A DNA stretch of 64,000 nucleotides from an uncultured Candidatus Saccharibacteria bacterium (GTDB taxonomy: Bacteria > Patescibacteriota > Minisyncoccia > CAIUEV01 > JAHKAQ01). The DNA lies in contig CAZRBB010000003.1 of NCBI GenBank assembly GCA_964598205.1, positions 115,186 to 179,185 of the forward strand. The letters run 5' to 3'. Of the stretch, positions 8,619 through 60,467 are shown in pieces. The stretch's first letter is position 1, and every line of letters starts with the position of its first letter. A model generated the notes under the pieces. The model had not been told where the DNA came from. It was given only the letters and a program-made list of their open reading frames with translations, and ran no database searches. The translations under genes and the position numbers were made by a program.

Positions 8619-8642
8619 AACCGCCTTTTGAGCGGTTTTTGT
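8619..8642 (+). terminator. Rho-independent terminator
   Basis: aaccgc-cttttga-gcggtt followed by tttttgtt. Confidence 0.55.
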
Positions 8643-8651
8643 TATGAAAAA

Positions 8652-8770
8652 AGCACTTTCGCACTCGGCACATTTCTTTGTTAAAATCTTCGTCGTTTGC
8701 TTACCGTAACTTAATTACGCTTGGCTTGCTTCCTTGGTTTTGTTTCGAACTGTGCCAAATGTGAAAGTAC
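8652..8770 (+). repeat. Dispersed TIR repeat family, copy A (diverged termini gcactttcgcac / gtgaaagtac, still mutually complementary)
   Basis: Shares the core cacatttctttgttaaaa...ccgtaac(t)taattacg...ggttttg..tcgaact with copies C and G. Confidence 0.8.
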
Positions 8771-17168: not shown

Positions 17169-18572
17169 TTAGTAGCGATAGTTTTCTGGTTTATAAGGAC
17201 CGCTAACTTCTACGCCTAAGTATTGAGCCTGGCTTTTGGTAAGTTTGGTTAATTTAACTCCAAGACTGGCTAGGTGATAGCGGGCAACGGTTTCGTCTAA
17301 TTTTTTTGGTAGCAGATAAACTCCTGGTGAATAATTTTTTTGCCAAAGTTCTATTTGTGCCAGTACTTGATTGGAAAAGGAAGAAGACATAACAAATGAA
17401 GGGTGGCCGGTGGCACAACCTAAATTAACTAAACGGCCTTCGGCTAAGAGAAGAATAAAACGACCGTCTGGAAAAATGTATTTGTCTACTTGAGGTTTAA
17501 TGTTTATTTTTTTGATTTTTTTATCGGCGTTTAATTTGGCGACTTCTATTTCGTTATCAAAGTGGCCAATATTACAAACAATAGTACCAGATTTCATGCG
17601 GGTTAGGTGTTGATAGGTAATTACCGCTTGATTGCCGGTGGCGGTGACAAAGATATCGGCTTCCTTTAGTATTTCTTCTACTGTTTTAACCGGATAGCCT
17701 TCCATGGCTGCTTGTAGGGCGTTGATGGGGTCAATTTCTGTAATAATTACTTTAGCTCCTAAGCCACGCATTGATTGAGCACAGCCTTTACCAACATCAC
17801 CATAACCGCAGATTACAACGGTCTTTCCGGCGATCATAATATCTGTGGCTCTTTTAATGCCGTCGGCCAAAGACTCCCTACAACCGTAAATGTTGTCGAA
17901 TTTAGACTTGGTAACTGAATCGTTAACATTGATGGCAGGGAAAAGCAGTTTTCCTTCTTTTTCTAGTTGATAAAGGCGATGAACACCAGTGGTGGTTTCT
18001 TCGGAAACTCCTTTAATTTGAGAAGTTATTTTTTGAAAGTATTCTTTGTCTTTTTGGTAAGTGGATTTTAAAAGTTTAAAGAATTCTTGAGTGTCGGCCG
18101 GTTCTTTTGAATAATCTTTTTTAAGTAGTGCTGGATTTTTAGTAATAGCCATTCCCTGATGAACAAAGAGAGTGGCGTCGCCGCCGTCGTCCACGATTAA
18201 ATTTGGTCCTTGGCCATTACCAAAATCAAAAGATTGTTTAAGGCACCACCAATATTCGGCGAGGGTTTCTTCTTTCCAGGCAAAAACAGGAATTCCGGCT
18301 TGGGCAATAGCGGCGGCAGCATGGTCTTGAGTGGAAAAAATGTTACAGGAGCTCCAGCGAATGACGGCACCAAGGGCAACTAAGGTTTCTATAAGGACGG
18401 CGGTTTGAATAGTCATGTGGAGCGAGCCGGTAATTCGGGAACCTAAAAGAGGTTTCTTTTTTTGATACTCGGCGCGAATGGCAATTAATCCTGGCATTTC
18501 TTTCTCTGCTAATTCAATTTCTTTTCTACCCCATTCGGCTAATTTTAGATCTTTAACTTTATATTTTTCCAT
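17169..18572 (-). CDS. ahcY: Adenosylhomocysteinase
   Basis: NAD-binding [10 protein letters not shown] and conserved SAHH core (467 aa). Confidence 0.9.
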
Positions 18573-21533: not shown

Positions 21534-21759
21534 AGGGGAAAGTTAAGAATTATGATGTTATTATAGCGGAAAGAGGTGGTTAATCAATTGTGGATGGAGA
21601 ATAATGAATAATTGACTAGCAGCAATATTAAAATTCTAAGGAATACATTCTAACGGGCTTAGCTTTTAGGAGTACGCTACGCTTCGCCCAGCGGCTTCGC
21701 TTGCTCGAGTTGGCTTTCTTTGATTTATAATCGATTTTTGGAAAATTGGGTGGAAGGGG

Positions 21760-26404: not shown

Positions 26405-26508
26405 ATTCTGCTAGGATTCATCTTTTTTCTTGGTGGGCAAGGTTTTTACGACTTATTCATTTGTATTTTTGTTCCTTAAATTCTGTATGATACAATATCT
26501 GTACCGTT

Positions 26509-26604
26509 CGCTTACCGTAATCTAATTACGCCCCGCCTCGGACGGCGGGTATGCTCACTTACTTCTCCGGCTTTGCCTTGAACTATAACCAAATGTGTAA
26601 GTCC
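26509..26604 (+). repeat. Dispersed TIR repeat family, copy B (5'-truncated; carries the GC-hairpin insert ccgcctcggacggcggg)
   Basis: cgcttaccgtaatctaattacgcc...ggctttgccttgaactataaccaaatgtgtaagtcc. Confidence 0.8.
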
Positions 26605-32790: not shown

Positions 32791-32932
32791 GGACTTACGC
32801 GTAGCCGCATATTTCTTTGTTAAAACCTGCGCCACTCGCTCACCGTAACCTAATTACGTCCCGCCTCGGACGGCGGGCATGCTCGCTCGCTTGCTCGGTT
32901 TTGCCTCGAACTATACTCAAACGCGTAAGTCC
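32791..32932 (+). repeat. Dispersed TIR repeat family, copy C (full length, 142 bp, 12-bp perfect TIR ggacttacgcgt/acgcgtaagtcc, with GC-hairpin insert)
   Basis: Reference copy. Convergent intergenic region between the small acidic ORF and zupT. Confidence 0.85.
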
Positions 32933-41781: not shown

Positions 41782-41786
41782 GGGAG

Positions 41787-41854
41787 GGCTTATGCGGTTG
41801 GCACATTTCTTCGTTAAAACCTCCGTCGCTTGCTCACCATAATCTAATTACGCC
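41787..41854 (+). repeat. Dispersed TIR repeat family, copy D (3'-truncated)
   Basis: ggcttatgcggttggcacatttcttcgttaaaacctccgtcgcttgctcaccataatctaattacgcc. Confidence 0.75.
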
Positions 41855-42762
41855 AAAGTTTCTTTGGTTACTTCTTTTTTATTTATCTTAAAAAGGCCGA
41901 CTAATCTCCCTAGCCAAAAAATAATTTCCATTAAAAGGAAGAAGGGGAGTTCAAAAAGAAAGGCAACGGTTTTTAAAGTTAAAAACAAACCAAGGGCTAA
42001 GCCAAAAGCGGAAAGAGGGTTTGTTTTTTCTAAGGAATTTAAATAATCTTCTATTTTTTGATTAATAATTTGGTTAAATATTTCTGAAATTTTTAGTTGG
42101 GGATCAAGCTCCATTTTCCAAGATTTTTCTAAAGTAGCGAGATATTTATTTACTTCTAGGGCAGAAGGTTCTTGGGAGGACTCTTCTTTTAATGATTTAG
42201 AAATTGCTTGTTCTAAGGAAAGCGAAGAATCATAGCCGATTACTCCTAATTGGGAGAAGCTTTTGGTTTTTTTCAGAATAAAATCGGTAGTTTTTTGGGT
42301 TAAGGCTAAGCGAAGCGGTGGAAGGTGTTTGTTTTCGTGTTTTTTCGTTAGCTCAGAAAAGTAGAGACCGGATCCAGCAAGGAAAAGAGATGTGGTAATT
42401 AGAGAATAGCTTACCAAAAGGGTGGCACTGACCTTTATTTTAACGGAATTTTTAAGATGTCTTTTTGTTTTCTGGGCTCCAGCAGCAAAAAAGATAATAG
42501 CCAAAATTAAGGCGATAGAGGAAATAAGGCCAAAGCTGATAATTAATATAGGAAGGAAACTTAGGACAGAAATAAAAAGGGCAAAGCGGAAAGAAAGAAA
42601 AATTACCCAAAAAATAGCGATCAGGAAAATAAGAAAATAACCAAGAAGGGAAGCCCAGCTAAAACGCTGCCCTTTAAGGAATGAAAAGGCACAGAACCAA
42701 CCGGCTCCGGAGCCAAAGAGAGCAGCTAAAGAAAAAAACCAAAGACTAAGCTTGTTGGTCAT
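41848..42762 (-). CDS. Hypothetical polytopic membrane protein
   Basis: 304-aa ORF with multiple TM segments; overlaps the next gene. Confidence 0.5.
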   Translation of the reverse strand: MTNKLSLWFFSLAALFGSGAGWFCAFSFLKGQRFSWASLLGYFLIFLIAIFWVIFLSFRFALFISVLSFLPILIISFGLISSIALILAIIFFAAGAQKTKRHLKNSVKIKVSATLLVSYSLITTSLFLAGSGLYFSELTKKHENKHLPPLRLALTQKTTDFILKKTKSFSQLGVIGYDSSLSLEQAISKSLKEESSQEPSALEVNKYLATLEKSWKMELDPQLKISEIFNQIINQKIEDYLNSLEKTNPLSAFGLALGLFLTLKTVAFLFELPFFLLMEIIFWLGRLVGLFKINKKEVTKETLA

Positions 42763-43328: not shown

Positions 43329-43357
43329 ATTATTATAAGGATTTACGCGTAGCCGCA
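43329..43357 (+). repeat. Dispersed TIR repeat family, fragment E (left end only)
   Basis: ggatttacgcgtagccgcatatttcttt. Confidence 0.6.
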
Positions 43358-43470
43358 TATTTCTTTCTCATCTTACATTTTTGGAGATAAAATTTCAATC
43401 AATTGAGTTCTCTCGGTACAACGACTTGTTTCTCTTTTGTTAGAAAGTATAGAATGAAGAAAATATTACT

Positions 43471-46026: not shown

Positions 46027-46097
46027 AGAATTACGAATTACGAATTACGAATTACGAATTACGAATTACGAATTACGAATTAGTTAATTAGTTAATA
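46027..46097 (+). repeat. Tandem heptamer (GAATTAC)x8 followed by (TTAGTTAA)x2
   Basis: Read directly in the sequence, between tRNA-Leu and hup. Confidence 0.9.
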
Positions 46098-46470: not shown

Positions 46471-46560
46471 GAACTTACACGCTTGGCACATTTCTTTATT
46501 AAAACCTGCGTCACTCGCTTACTCGGTTTTGCCTAGAACTGTGCTCAAGCGTGTAAGTCC
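46471..46560 (+). repeat. Dispersed TIR repeat family, copy F (internally deleted; 15-bp perfect TIR acttacacgcttg.../...caagcgtgtaagt)
   Basis: gaacttacacgcttggcacatttctttattaaaacctgcgtcactcgcttactcggttttgcctagaactgtgctcaagcgtgtaagtcc. Confidence 0.8.
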
Positions 46561-53100: not shown

Positions 53101-53126
53101 AGAACTTATGCGCCTGGCGTAGTCCT
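53101..53126 (+). repeat. Dispersed TIR repeat family, minimal ends-only copy H
   Basis: gaacttatgcgcc|tggcgtagtcctaa, i.e. left-end and right-end motifs joined. Confidence 0.5.
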
Positions 53127-53130
53127 AAAA

Positions 53131-53727
53131 TTAGAATCCTGATCGATTATTAAAAGATTCTCTCATTGATTCGGTGTCGGCATAGCCGATTTCTCCTCCA
53201 GTTGGAAGGCCTCGTCCGAGGCGGGTTATTTTTAGTTTAGGGAATTGTTCTAATATTTCTTTGATTAGGGTGGCGGTGGCTTCTCCGGTGGAAGTAAAGT
53301 TGGTGGCAATAATTACTTCTTTAATTTTTTCTTTTAAGATCCTTTCTTTTAGTTCAGTGATTTTTAACTTATTTAGATTGTTTTTTCCGCCGATTCCTAG
53401 CGTTCCTCCTAGAACATGGTAGGTTCCCTTGTAGATTGCTTTTTCTTCTATGGCCATTAAATCTAGAGGGCTTTCTGTTACGCAGAGCAGTTCCTTGATT
53501 CTTTCTGGATCTTGACAGATAGAGCAAAGATGATCTTCTGTTAAATTAAAACAAATTGGGCAAAATTTCCCCAATCGTAAGTGATCTAAGGCTTCTTTAA
53601 AGCCTTCTAATTCAGTGGCTGGTTTTTTGATTAGGTAAAGGGCTATTCGTTCGGCGCTTTTGGGGCCGATAGCTGGAAGTCTAGATAAAAGCGAAATTGC
53701 TCTTTGGATATTTCTAGGAAATGGCAT
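53131..53727 (-). CDS. recR: Recombination protein RecR
   Basis: HhH N-terminus, C4 zinc finger CPICFNL...CSIC, and a Toprim domain. Confidence 0.9.
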   Translation of the reverse strand: MPFPRNIQRAISLLSRLPAIGPKSAERIALYLIKKPATELEGFKEALDHLRLGKFCPICFNLTEDHLCSICQDPERIKELLCVTESPLDLMAIEEKAIYKGTYHVLGGTLGIGGKNNLNKLKITELKERILKEKIKEVIIATNFTSTGEATATLIKEILEQFPKLKITRLGRGLPTGGEIGYADTESMRESFNNRSGF

Positions 53728-58551: not shown

Positions 58552-58616
58552 TTTTTTAAATTTGAATAATTGAACAGTTTGGAAGATGATACTAAATATA
58601 TCATAATCTTAACAAT

Positions 58617-58699
58617 TATGAATTACGAATTTTTAATTTCGAAATAATTTTAAATTTTAAATTAAGAATTTAATCGAAATTAAAAATTCGTAATTCATA
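58617..58699. repeat. Perfect 26-bp inverted repeat (tatgaattacgaatttttaatttcga / tcgaaattaaaaattcgtaattcata) with a 31-nt AT spacer
   Basis: Read directly; the arms are exact reverse complements. Lies in the divergent corA/yidD intergenic region. Confidence 0.9.
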
Positions 58700-58713
58700 A
58701 TTCAATCTTTCTT

Positions 58714-59762: not shown

Positions 59763-59776
59763 TTCTAAATTATTAT

Positions 59777-59895
59777 GACTTACGCGTAGCCACATATTTT
59801 TTCGTTAAAATCTGTGCCATTCACTCACCGTAACCTAATTATGCCTTACTTGCTTTTCCGGTTTTGCCTTGAACTATAATCAAACGCGTAAGTCC
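59777..59895 (+). repeat. Dispersed TIR repeat family, copy G (full length without GC insert) between hrcA and grpE
   Basis: gacttacgcgtagccacatattttttcgttaaaatctgtgccattcactcaccgtaacctaattatgcc...ggttttgccttgaactataatcaaacgcgtaagtcc. Confidence 0.85.
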
Positions 59896-59912: not shown

Positions 59913-60467
59913 ATGTGGAATAAAAAGAAGAAAAAAGAAACAACTAAAGCACCAGAGTTAAAGGAGCTCAAAAAAGAAAAGAAAGCAGAAAAAATAGTAG
60001 AGGAGAAGGCAGGGGAAGCGGTAAAAGAGGAGGTGCTTAGGGAACAAGAGGATTACTTGGCTGGCTGGCAAAGGTGCAAGGCTGACTTTGAGAATTATCA
60101 AAAAAAAGTTTCCCAATTGTTGTTTGATTCCCAGCAGAAAACAAAGGAGCGCTTAATTACAGAAGTGATCGGGGTTTTGGACAATTTTAATTTGGCGGTG
60201 GGGTATATTCCAAAGGATCAAATGAAAGAAGGCTGGGTGATTGGAGTAATCTACATTAAAAAGCAGTTAGAGGATTTTTTAAAGAAAGAAGAAGTAGAGG
60301 AAATTTTGATTTTAGGAGAAGATTTTAATCCGGAATTTGCCGAATGTTTAGAAGAACTCCCTGAATCGGGTAAAGATAATAAAGGTAAAGTAATGGAGAT
60401 TATTCAAAATGGGTATCGTTTAAATGGGAGAGTAATTAGAGCAGCCAAGGTTAAAATAGGTGGTTAA
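59913..60467 (+). CDS. grpE: Nucleotide exchange factor GrpE
   Basis: K/E-rich N-terminus, DFENYQKK, and GrpE C-terminal beta domain. Confidence 0.85.
   Translation: MWNKKKKKETTKAPELKELKKEKKAEKIVEEKAGEAVKEEVLREQEDYLAGWQRCKADFENYQKKVSQLLFDSQQKTKERLITEVIGVLDNFNLAVGYIPKDQMKEGWVIGVIYIKKQLEDFLKKEEVEEILILGEDFNPEFAECLEELPESGKDNKGKVMEIIQNGYRLNGRVIRAAKVKIGG

What the first reader, a model, noticed from the sequence alone, without database searches (positions are those of the whole stretch)
32791..32932. Previously undescribed dispersed ~120-140 bp element with terminal inverted repeats, found as at least 8 copies or fragments in 64 kb
Copies lie at 8652-8770 (A), 26509-26604 (B), 32791-32932 (C), 41787-41854 (D), 43329-43357 (E), 46471-46560 (F), 53101-53126 (H) and 59777-59895 (G). 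A possible degenerate remnant lies near 21655-21735. Full copies begin GGACTTACGCGTAGCC and end ACGCGTAAGTCC, a 12-15 bp TIR. They share an internal core cacatttctttgttaaaacctgcg...caccgtaacctaattacg...ggttttgcctcgaactata. Subtypes exist. B and C carry an extra GC hairpin ccgcctcggacggcgggc. F has an internal deletion. D and E are half-elements, and H is an ends-only footprint. All copies are intergenic. The architecture resembles MITE-like elements such as ERIC or Correia, but this family is in a reduced low-GC genome.
Basis: seen in the sequence. Interest (0 to 1): 0.75.

Follow-up and report, generated by a model that had tools for sequence, protein, structure and literature searches.

The report
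Hairpin-forming dispersed repeat family in CPR bacterium
A real family of about 120-base non-coding DNA repeats, each folding into one long hairpin, is scattered just after gene ends in a tiny-genome "candidate phyla radiation" bacterium and in one distant relative; it resembles the small palindromic mobile repeats of other bacteria (ERIC, REPIN, MITEs), and I found no record of it.

Summary
Eight copies or fragments lie in the window, and a ninth lies 4.5 kb upstream on the same contig. All are on the + strand, which is the leading strand and the majority gene strand.

- B is full length (26449-26604).
- E is at 43339-43366.
- The remnant near 21.7 kb is unproven.

Each copy is one long imperfect hairpin, not just a pair of terminal inverted repeats. 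A covariance model also found six copies in a relative (ENA ERZ21869533 contig_5; DnaB 79%, GrpE 47% identical). They sit in different spacers of the same conserved operon, again always on the leading strand. Four other relatives showed none in 17-35 kb each.

Across 11 copies, 17 of 25 stem pairs show changes on both sides that keep the pair (0 of 500 shuffles). The hairpin is therefore actively maintained.

Copies start 2-14 nt after a stop codon or just after an intrinsic terminator. I found no target-site duplication, no transposase, and no match in Rfam, plasmid, phage or viral collections. The GTDB-genome and JGI-metagenome pattern scans gave no confirmed copy.

Best reading: an old, non-autonomous hairpin repeat of the ERIC/REPIN/MITE kind, new to Patescibacteria. 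Whether the folding strand is ssDNA or RNA is unresolved.

The parts
8653..8770 (+). Copy A, full length (118 nt). It lies between obg and a DEAD-box helicase gene and starts about 12 nt after the T-run of an intrinsic terminator.
   Evidence: R1 128.5 bits; R2 105.9 bits. Folds as one long hairpin, z = -4.7. Terminator at 8619-8637.
26449..26604 (+). Copy B, full length (156 nt). It has a degenerate 5' arm, a 16-nt internal duplication (tgatacaatatctgta) and the extra GC hairpin. It ends 30 nt before the ATG of an alpha-amylase-family gene.
   Evidence: R1 49.9 bits, model positions 1-119, alignment shown. Sequence.
32791..32932 (+). Copy C, the flagged copy (142 nt), full length with the extra GC hairpin. 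It follows a 77-aa + strand ORF and its terminator, and is convergent with a ZIP transporter gene.
   Evidence: Sequence. R1 131.1 bits. Fold. ORFs.
32791..32802 (+). 5' arm of the outer stem in copy C (GGACTTACGCGT).
   Evidence: Exact inverted match to 32921-32932. Pairs 1-12.
32921..32932 (+). 3' arm of the outer stem in copy C (ACGCGTAAGTCC).
32844..32858 (+). Apical hairpin CGTAA-CCTAA-TTACG. Its structure is conserved while its sequence changes (CTGTAC...GTACAG in the relative). It is flanked by CTCGCT direct repeats.
   Evidence: Fold. Helix 2: two pairs with changes on both sides, 91.7% of cells paired.
32860..32877 (+). Extra GC-rich hairpin (CCCGCC-TCGGAC-GGCGGG), an insertion found only in copies B and C.
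   Evidence: Alignments. Helix 5.
41786..41854 (+). Copy D, the 5' half only. It starts 5 nt after the stop codon of a 3'-5' exonuclease gene. Its AATTACG loop supplies the TAA stop codon (41848-41850) of the convergent ORF 41848..42762.
   Evidence: R1 39.2 bits. Alignment. Sequence.
43339..43366 (+). Copy E, a 28-nt 5'-end fragment (GGATTTACGCGTAGCCGCATATTTCTTT) in a divergent spacer.
   Evidence: (D8).
46471..46560 (+). Copy F (90 nt). An internal deletion between CTCGCT direct repeats removed the apical hairpin. It lies between the HU gene (with its terminator) and a beta-helix protein gene.
   Evidence: R1 99.4 bits. Fold z = -8.2. Alignment. Sequence.
53102..53125 (+). Copy H, an ends-only copy of 24 nt. 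It sits in the 34-nt convergent spacer between rplU (L21) and recR. With its flanks it forms a 40-nt hairpin that runs from one stop codon to the other.
   Evidence: The two-ended pattern has 0.005 matches expected in shuffles. Fold z = -4.2.
59776..59895 (+). Copy G, full length (120 nt), between hrcA (stop codon 14 nt upstream) and grpE (ATG 17 nt downstream).
   Evidence: R1 135.2 bits. Gene calls.
21696..21730 (+). Possible degenerate remnant of a 3' half. Not established.
   Evidence: Only a 15-nt local match (1 of 200 shuffles for one of five copies). Not found by R1 or R2 at E up to 10 or 2.

Best explanation
This is an old family of non-autonomous dispersed repeats that fold into a hairpin. 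It is the same kind of object as ERIC, REPIN and palindromic MITEs.

Anatomy. A full copy (118-156 nt) is a single imperfect palindrome. It has a 12-17 bp outer stem (GGACTTACGCG(T)TTGG / CCAAACGCGTAAGTCC and covarying versions), a bulged middle stem, and a 5-6 bp apical hairpin flanked by CTCGCT direct repeats.

History (inferred). The family multiplied separately in at least two Moranbacteria-like lineages. Each genome has its own sequence type and different spacers are occupied. The copies then decayed by internal deletion (F, H, I), truncation (D, E) and internal insertion (B, C).

Placement. Copies persist only at gene 3' ends, 2-14 nt after a stop codon or just past an intrinsic terminator. 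The same strand always lies on the leading strand.

What is shown. The family exists and the hairpin is conserved through compensatory change. Orientation and placement are regular. The element occurs in a second genome at non-orthologous sites and was not found in four others.

What is inferred. The element really folds as a single strand in the cell. It spread through a strand-specific single-stranded DNA route at the replication fork, catalysed in trans by an enzyme encoded elsewhere (an HUH/Y1 enzyme of the RAYT or IS200 type is the obvious candidate). Once inserted, it is transcribed as part of 3' UTRs and operon spacers.
For: Family membership and statistics.

Whole-length hairpin: eight copies fold with z-scores from -3.8 to -12 on the gene strand.

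Covariation:
- Eleven copies from two genomes give 25 pairs with 90.9% of cells paired, against 75.4% in shuffles.
- Seventeen pairs and 42 cells have changes on both sides, with 0 of 500 shuffles reaching this. Slid controls give 2-6 pairs.
- The closest pair of copies, X3 and X4 (88% identical), differ at three stem pairs, and all three are compensated.
- X2 and X3 show 7 compensated pairs and 1 broken.

Second genome: four copies in L100 and two in L104 (ENA ERZ21869533 contig_5), found with R1 and R2.

Non-orthologous sites in the syntenic hrcA-grpE-dnaK-dnaJ operon:
- Window: hrcA|G|grpE.
- Relative: X3|hrcA, grpE|X2|dnaK, dnaJ|X1.
- The same spacers are 11-86 nt and element-free in L098, L101 and L102.

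Lineage-specific sequence types: 75% and 68% identity within the two genomes, 49% between them.

Patchy distribution: no hit in L098/L099/L105/L106, L101, L102 or L103.

Orientation:
- 9 of 9 copies in the window genome and 6 of 6 in the relative lie on the G-rich leading strand.
- In L104 the GC skew is negative and the copies are on the minus strand.
- This includes 4 copies in convergent spacers and 1 in a divergent spacer, where gene direction alone would not fix the orientation.

Decay products and assembly breaks typical of repeats: a short-read contig ends inside copy C.

Precedents:
- REPINs are about 100-nt hairpins with common compensatory changes, mobilised in trans by single-copy RAYTs (PMC3116915).
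- REPs lie mostly downstream of ORFs, between unidirectional and convergent genes (PMC3733652).
- IS200/IS605 elements insert with an orientation set by the lagging-strand template (PMC5027513).
Against: - No target-site duplication can be shown.
- No precise empty site is available. The nearest relatives have only 47-52% identical GrpE, and all other samples of this organism are 100% identical.
- No transposase, RAYT or IS-like gene appears among the genes of the roughly 117 kb read from the two carrier genomes.
- No two copies are more than 88% identical, so there is no sign of recent movement.
- The arms are not themselves REP hairpins.
- Leading-strand orientation and gene co-orientation coincide for all but five copies, so coupling to replication is not proven.
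- Well-kept stems in old copies would equally fit a host function at the RNA level.
Confidence: 0.6

Rival explanations
1. The element is a host-serving cis-acting RNA module in 3' UTRs and operon spacers. Transcribed with the upstream gene, the long hairpin would protect the 3' end from exonucleases, or offer a double-strand RNase (RNase III-type) site that separates cistrons. Selection on this function would keep the stems and fix the orientation relative to transcription. On this reading the way it spread is secondary.
For: - Fourteen of 15 copies have a co-oriented gene immediately upstream. Seven start 2-14 nt after its stop codon: X1 2, Y1 3, X2 5, D 5, H 5, I 9, G 14.
- Several copies sit inside operons (hrcA-grpE, grpE-dnaK).
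- Stems are kept by compensatory change in copies only 66-88% identical.
- None of the 8 spacers of at least 85 nt between two lagging-strand genes carries a copy, against 4 of 10 leading-strand tandem spacers in the window (gene tables).
- REP-type repeats are thought to act as RNA elements downstream of genes (PMC3733652).
Against: - A, C, F and Y2 lie after a separate intrinsic terminator, so they may not be transcribed with the upstream gene.
- Wobble pairs show no strand preference in the well-defined stems: 7 G-T against 8 A-C.
- The antisense strand folds as well or better in all eight full-length copies tested, by 10-17 kcal/mol in five of them.
- All four copies in convergent spacers keep the leading-strand orientation.
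- Half copies and end fragments (D, E) persist.
- Four related genomes with the same operons were found to lack the element.
Confidence: 0.25
2. The element is a classical cut-and-paste MITE of a DDE transposon (for example IS630/Tc1-like with TA duplication). Only the terminal inverted repeats would matter, and they would be bound by a transposase encoded elsewhere.
For: - Terminal inverted repeats of 12-17 bp.
- TA follows the 3' end in 5 of 6 window copies. TA precedes the 5' end in F, H and G.
- Size, copy number, deletion derivatives and patchy distribution fit.
Against: - The 5' flank is TA in only 3 of 8 window copies, and 1 of 4 L100 copies has TA on both sides. TA is self-complementary, so it may simply extend the palindrome.
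- The terminal sequences themselves vary between copies with compensation (ACGCG/CGCGT, ACACG/CGTGT, ATCTG/CAGAT, CTTCACG/CGTGAAG). One transposase reading a fixed end sequence would not produce this.
- Internal stems and the apical hairpin covary too.
- A 15 of 15 orientation bias is not expected for insertion into double-stranded DNA.
- No DDE transposase was seen.
Confidence: 0.1
3. The element is a family of independent small-RNA genes, or an orientation-dependent single-stranded DNA site used by the replication machinery (for example a priming or primosome-assembly hairpin on the lagging-strand template).
For: - Conserved structure with some conserved unpaired blocks (TTTGGC, CTCGCTCAC, CATCCAAA) across two genomes.
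- Strict orientation with the replichore.
Against: - No conserved promoter or terminator flanks the copies. Only A has a promoter-like match, and no copy has a U-tract.
- Truncated and gutted copies are common.
- No copy was found in four related genomes.
- No Rfam family matches.
- Spacing is irregular (1.5-18 kb).
Confidence: 0.05

Closest known systems
ERIC / IRU elements of Enterobacteriaceae and Vibrio (about 127 bp imperfect palindromes)
   Same: - About 120 nt and non-coding.
- The whole element is one imperfect palindrome.
- Dispersed in intergenic regions close to genes.
- Shorter variants arise by internal deletion and longer ones by insertion at internal sites. Here these are F, H and I against B and C.
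- No transposase of its own.

(The ERIC properties are from my own knowledge and from mentions in PMC3184786 and PMC2759123, listed.)
   Different: - No sequence relationship was shown, and the phylum is different.
- Here all 15 copies have one orientation relative to the leading strand. From memory, ERICs occur in both orientations.
- Copies here are much more diverged from each other.
REPINs (REP doublets forming hairpins) mobilised by RAYT Y1 transposases
   Same: - A symmetric hairpin of about 100 nt predicted in ssDNA or mRNA.
- Compensatory changes are common.
- Extragenic, non-autonomous and persistent in lineages, with lineage-specific sequence populations (PMC3116915; abstracts).
- Placed downstream of ORFs between unidirectional and convergent genes (PMC3733652).
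   Different: - The arms are not REP units. They have no self-folding 20-40 nt palindrome, and GTAG appears in only three copies.
- No RAYT gene was seen in the DNA available.
- There are no near-identical master copies, and no clusters or tandem arrays.
Correia / NEMIS elements of Neisseria and other bacterial MITEs (RUP, Nezha, RPE)
   Same: - Size of 100-160 bp, with terminal inverted repeats.
- High density in a small genome, with deletion subtypes.
- Possible TA at the ends.
- Expected to be co-transcribed and to form RNA hairpins (own knowledge).
   Different: - No demonstrable target-site duplication.
- The termini covary instead of being fixed.
- Orientation is strict.
- Unlike RPE, none is inserted inside a coding sequence, apart from D touching the end of one gene.
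IS200/IS605-family elements and their non-autonomous derivatives
   Same: Orientation is locked to the direction of replication, as expected for transposition of single-stranded DNA into the lagging-strand template (PMC5027513). These elements also depend on folded single-stranded DNA.
   Different: Those elements carry two separate subterminal hairpins and specific tetranucleotide or pentanucleotide cleavage and target sites, not one whole-length hairpin. No TnpA or TnpB gene was seen here.

Membership tests
MITE (non-autonomous DNA transposon) | Small, non-coding, multi-copy and dispersed | tested here: met
   There are 9 copies or fragments in about 75 kb and 6 in about 42 kb of a second genome, sized 24-156 nt. 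No reading frame is conserved, because indels differ between copies.
MITE (non-autonomous DNA transposon) | Terminal inverted repeats | tested here: met
   The outer stem is 12-17 bp and perfect or nearly perfect in every copy that has both ends.
MITE (non-autonomous DNA transposon) | Target-site duplication flanking each copy | tested here: inconclusive
   TA follows the 3' end in 5 of 6 window copies but precedes the 5' end in 3 of 8. The flanks of the L100 copies are A...T, with no direct repeat. TA is self-complementary.
MITE (non-autonomous DNA transposon) | A cognate autonomous element or transposase with the same ends | not testable with these tools
   None occurs among the called genes of the roughly 117 kb read from the two carrier genomes. 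The rest of both genomes could not be fetched.
MITE (non-autonomous DNA transposon) | Presence/absence polymorphism (empty sites) | tested here: inconclusive
   The two carrier genomes have different spacers of the same operon occupied, and syntenic spacers in four relatives are short and empty. No precise empty site exists at nucleotide resolution. All other samples of this organism are identical.
REPIN / REP-BIME | Built from two inverted REP units, each a 20-40 nt palindrome with a GTAG or CGTC tag | tested here: not met
   The arms contain no self-folding unit. GTAG occurs only in C, G and E. The definitions come from PMC3116915 and PMC3733652.
REPIN / REP-BIME | Long hairpin with compensatory changes between the two halves | tested here: met
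   Seventeen of 25 pairs have changes on both sides, with 0 of 500 shuffles reaching this.
REPIN / REP-BIME | An associated single-copy RAYT (Y1 HUH) gene flanked by the repeat | not testable with these tools
   No Y1_Tnp domain occurs in any called gene of the loci held.
ERIC / IRU | Sequence similarity to the ERIC consensus, in an enterobacterial or Vibrio host | not tested
   No ERIC consensus or model was available in the tools. The host is a Patescibacterium, so homology is unlikely. Only the architecture is shared.
Integron attC array | Hairpin sites with R''/R' core motifs (RYYYAAC...GTTRRRY) that separate promoterless cassettes next to intI | tested here: not met
   Housekeeping genes (obg, aspS, metG, dnaK, dnaB) lie between copies at 1.5-18 kb spacing. 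The termini are GGACTTAC.../...GTAAGTCC, and there is no integrase.
Intrinsic (Rho-independent) terminator | GC-rich hairpin immediately followed by a U-tract | tested here: not met
   The scans call the separate upstream terminator at A. The ones before C and F are visible by eye but were not called. The scans call nothing at the elements themselves. The L100 and L104 copies are followed by TTAAAC, TGACTA, TAAGAG, TAACGT and TACAAC.
Any curated RNA family (Rfam 15) | A match to a covariance model at its gathering score | tested here: not met
   Only RNase P and three tRNAs pass in the window. Permissive scans over copies A and C hit only the neighbouring terminators, far below threshold.

The most novel reading that the evidence does not exclude
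This would be a long-lived hairpin replicator under selection for its structure, specific to a Moranbacteria-like branch of the candidate phyla radiation. It would be analogous to REPIN-RAYT systems but built differently: one whole-length hairpin with no REP units. It would spread through single-stranded DNA at the replication fork, which would explain why all 15 copies share the leading-strand orientation, using a mobilising enzyme that is so far unknown. It would have been co-opted as a punctuation element immediately after stop codons in ultra-compact genomes.
Probability: 0.3. Interest if true: 0.65.

Novelty: new member of a known kind. Interest (0 to 1): 0.45.

Why it matters
Genomes of the candidate phyla radiation are about 1 Mb, tightly packed, and generally regarded as poor in mobile DNA. 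This family has roughly one copy per 7 kb, so it would fill more than 1% of such a genome. It breaks short-read assemblies: contigs end inside copies.

Its stems are kept intact by compensatory change even though copies are only 66-88% identical. Something in the cell therefore reads the folded single strand. The strict strand orientation and the placement right after stop codons give two clean, testable alternatives: ssDNA mobilisation at the replication fork, or an RNA function in 3' UTRs.

Practical uses:
- The covariance model can mask or annotate these repeats in Patescibacteria MAGs.
- It can flag spurious small ORFs called over them, such as L104 17666..17962.
- The copies can serve as strain or lineage markers.

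Tried and rejected
1. Public-collection scans with degenerate patterns.
- The GTDB genome scan gave 84 single hits, all chance. None was confirmed by R1.
- Two JGI metagenome scans gave 0 hits.
- Three IMG/VR scans gave 0 hits.
- These collections evidently do not hold, or mask, the source genome. The exact-pattern method cannot reach diverged relatives, so the absence is weak evidence.

2. Plasmid and phage BLAST with copy C found no match.

3. Strain-level empty sites. Every other contig of this organism (JGI and Logan samples) is 100% identical over the elements, so there is no polymorphism to use.

4. Choosing the functional strand from wobble pairs.
- A first count on window copies suggested more G-U pairs on the + strand.
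- With 11 copies and only the unambiguous stems it is 7 against 8.
- Folding energies favour the opposite strand.
- I reject the claim that the + strand RNA is the folded species as unproven.

5. Promoter inside the element. Only copy A gives a sigma-70-like match (TTCGCA-18-TAAAAT with TG). Other copies have TAAAAC or weak -35 elements. Rejected as a family property.

6. Intrinsic terminator: rejected, because there is no U-tract.

7. Integron attC, retron, CRISPR and small-ORF readings: rejected on anatomy.

8. Unannotated ORFs next to copies as a hidden transposase (304-aa and 189-aa ORFs between D and E, and others). No Pfam or NCBIfam support. The weak hits look like membrane proteins.

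9. Remnant at about 21.7 kb: not confirmed.

10. A 13-nt inverted match of the B/C hairpin inside recR is probably chance.
Full report
**Where the window comes from**

- The window matches a 106 kb JGI metagenome contig (3300044991, Ga0485167_0000045) and identical contigs in several Logan and JGI samples.
- Gene content is typical of Patescibacteria (CPR): many glycosyltransferases, DUF4012 and a compact layout.
- The best named protein hits are Candidatus Moranbacteria (DnaB up to 83% identical, GrpE at most 52%).
- GC content is 35-45%. GC skew is positive across the whole window, so the + strand is the leading strand throughout. About two thirds of the genes are on it.

Yes.
- The terminal 12-mer occurs 5 times against 0.07 expected.
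- Two longer degenerate patterns match 5 and 4 copies against 0 expected.
- The repeat finder groups the copies.
- A covariance model built from four full copies (R1) was run unfiltered over both strands. It recovers A, B, C, D, F and G on the + strand and nothing else. A second model does the same.
- The short pieces E and H are too small for the models. E shares 28 nt with C at 84% including the flank (D8). H matches a two-ended pattern expected 0.005 times.
- A ninth copy ('I', L091 3214-3278) lies 4.5 kb upstream of the window on the same contig.

Corrections:
- B is a complete copy (26449-26604). Its 5' arm has drifted but still pairs with the 3' arm. It carries a 16-nt internal duplication.
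- E is at 43339-43366.
- The remnant near 21.7 kb is not supported.

**Anatomy**

- Every copy with both ends folds into one long imperfect hairpin. Gene-strand z-scores run from -3.8 to -12 in the eight full-length copies tested.
- The outer stem has 12-17 bp. Next comes a bulged middle stem, then in most copies a 5-6 bp apical hairpin flanked on both sides by CTCGCT-type direct repeats.
- F lost the apex by a deletion between those direct repeats.
- H and I keep little more than the two ends.
- B and C carry an extra 18-nt GC hairpin.
- D and E are 5' pieces.
- The elements are richer in GC (40-55%) than the surrounding spacers.
- Unlike the rest of the leading strand, they are richer in C than G on that strand.

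**A second genome**

The direct pattern scans gave no confirmed copy. I therefore fetched the chaperone and dnaB loci of the nearest relatives through their proteins.

- R1 and then R2 found four copies in L100 and two in L104. Both loci come from one 1.2 Mb ENA contig (ERZ21869533 contig_5) whose DnaB is 79% and GrpE 47% identical to the window's.
- These copies have the same length (118-122 nt) and architecture, and share blocks such as GCGTTTGGC, CTCGCTCAC and CATCCAAACGCG. They form a distinct sequence type.
- Identity is 75% within the window genome, 68% within the relative and 49% between them.
- They occupy different spacers of the same conserved operon. In the relative these are upstream of hrcA, between grpE and dnaK, and after dnaJ. 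In the window it is between hrcA and grpE.
- In three other syntenic relatives the hrcA-grpE spacer is 11, 35 and 86 nt and empty. In L102 the L21 and recR genes overlap, with no room for a copy like H. The HU-to-beta-helix spacer holds only a terminator.
- Four related genomes gave no hit in 17-35 kb each, where 2-5 copies would be expected at the carrier density.
- Positions are therefore not inherited from a common ancestor. The family multiplied separately in each lineage and is patchily distributed, which is the behaviour of mobile DNA.

**The hairpin is maintained**

- On an alignment of 11 copies (A7), using only the unambiguous helices, 90.9% of 264 cells form standard pairs, against 75.4% in shuffles.
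- Seventeen of 25 pairs and 42 cells show changes on both sides, with 0 of 500 shuffles reaching this. Sliding the partner gives 2-6 pairs.
- The two closest copies (X3 and X4, 88% identical) differ at three stem pairs, all compensated. X2 and X3 differ at eight, seven of them compensated.
- Examples of outer stems: GGACTTACGCG/CGCGTAAGTCC, GAACTTACACG/CGTGTAAGTCC, GGGCTTGCGCG/CGCGCAAGCCC, GAACCTTCACG/CGTGAAGGTTC, GGGATTATCTG/CAGATAATCCC.
- Copies this diverged would have lost about a fifth of their pairs if they drifted neutrally. The five best copies of the relative keep 24-25 of 25 Watson-Crick pairs.
- Either selection acts on folding at each locus, or the two arms correct each other while folded. 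Both require that the element really folds as a single strand or cruciform in the cell. This is an inference, but a strong one.

**Which strand folds is not settled**

- Wobble pairs in the clear stems are balanced: 7 G-T against 8 A-C.
- The strand antisense to the genes folds as well or better in all eight full-length copies tested, by 10-17 kcal/mol in five of them, because it is the G-rich strand.

**Placement and orientation**

- All 9 copies of the window genome and all 6 of the relative have the same strand on the leading strand.
- In L104 the GC skew is negative, and both copies there are on the minus strand.
- Fourteen of 15 have a co-oriented gene directly upstream.
- Seven begin 2-14 nt after its stop codon: X1 2, Y1 3, X2 5, D 5, H 5, I 9, G 14.
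- Four begin just after a separate intrinsic terminator: A, C, F and Y2.
- The four copies in convergent spacers and the one in a divergent spacer also keep the leading-strand orientation. Gene direction alone would do that 1 time in 32.
- No copy lies between two lagging-strand genes (0 of 8 such spacers of at least 85 nt). The test that would separate replication from transcription therefore cannot be made with the DNA I could reach.

**What it is not**

- No Rfam family matches.
- It is not an intrinsic terminator: no U-tract, and no calls at the elements.
- It is not a promoter module. Only A has a sigma-70-like match.
- It is not an attC array, because housekeeping genes lie between copies and there is no integrase.
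- It is not coding.
- No transposase domain occurs among the genes of the roughly 117 kb read from the two carrier genomes. The unannotated ORFs near copies have no such signal.
- A target-site duplication cannot be shown. TA follows the 3' end in 5 of 6 window copies but precedes the 5' end in 3 of 8, and in the relative the flanks are simply A...T, which extends the palindrome by one pair.

**Interpretation**

The best-supported reading (confidence about 0.6) is an old, non-autonomous hairpin repeat of the ERIC/REPIN/palindromic-MITE kind.
- REPINs are the closest in behaviour. They are about 100-nt symmetric hairpins with frequent compensatory changes, extragenic, mobilised in trans, and persistent within lineages (PMC3116915).
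- ERIC is the closest in build (own knowledge): one whole-length imperfect palindrome of about 127 bp, with deletion and insertion variants.
[quoted passage not shown] I therefore favour an ssDNA route with a trans-acting HUH-type enzyme. That step is inferred, and no such gene was seen.

The main rival (about 0.25) is that the copies are kept because they serve as RNA hairpins in 3' UTRs and operon spacers, for stability or for processing by a double-strand RNase. The two readings are not exclusive. A plain DDE-type MITE (about 0.1) fits less well, because the termini themselves covary and the orientation is uniform.

**Novelty and interest**

- I found no description of such a family in Patescibacteria and no database match.
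- It is a new family of a known kind, not a new kind of system.
- Its unusual points are the 15 of 15 strand lock, the placement right after stop codons, well-kept stems in old copies, and a density of about one per 7 kb in a roughly 1 Mb genome. These make it a modestly interesting and very testable case.

Noticed in passing
window 46028-46082: There are 7.9 perfect tandem copies of GAATTAC directly after tRNA-Leu. The JGI contig version (L095) has 14 nt more here, which is two units. Two short-read contigs end in this array. The array length therefore varies between assemblies or samples.
   Followed up: partly
window 58614-58702: An AT-rich palindrome of 89 nt (44-nt arms, 89% complementary) lies in the divergent spacer between corA and yidD-hrcA. 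It contains GAATTACGAATT, the same 7-mer as the tandem array at 46 kb. Several Logan contigs start here. It could be a regulatory operator for the chaperone operon. It does not resemble the CIRCE consensus as I recall it.
   Followed up: no
window 59913-60467 (grpE): GrpE here is 184 aa. In the closest relatives it is 252-290 aa, with an N-terminal NUDIX domain fused to it. Repeat copy G occupies the spacer where that extra coding sequence would begin.
   Followed up: no
window 41848-42762 (minus strand) with copy D: The TAA stop codon of this unannotated 304-aa ORF lies inside the truncated repeat copy D (41848-41850). The repeat, or the event that truncated it, therefore defines the present C-terminus of the protein.
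   Followed up: partly
L104 7008-7153 (ENA ERZ21869533 contig_5): A different long palindrome of about 146 nt, unrelated in sequence (GGGCTTTTGCTTACCCCTTTTAGAACC ... GGTTCTAAAAGGGGTAAGCAAAAGCCC), lies in a divergent spacer of the relative's genome. That genome may carry more than one family of hairpin repeats.
   Followed up: no
L103 9268-10363 (NCBI GCA_043816685.1): In this relative dnaJ is called as three pieces, with a 49-aa antisense ORF in between. This could be an insertion, a frameshift or an assembly error. Neither repeat model hits it.
   Followed up: partly
window 53213-53225 (inside recR): A 13-nt exact inverted match to the extra GC hairpin of copies B and C (CCCGCCTCGGACG) lies in coding sequence (I21/I22). 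It is probably chance, given how many 13-mers the family offers.
   Followed up: no
all full copies (for example window 32791-32932; L100 14259-14377): On the leading strand the repeats have more C than G (47 C to 31 G in copy C; 36 to 20 in X1), although the genome has about 20% more G than C on that strand. The antisense strand folds 10-17 kcal/mol more stably in five copies. This is unexplained. It could mean that the weaker-folding strand is the one tolerated in mRNA or on the lagging-strand template.
   Followed up: partly
L104 17666-17962: A 98-aa 'gene' called on the relative's contig lies over repeat copy Y2 (17737-17854) and is probably a spurious ORF.
   Followed up: no
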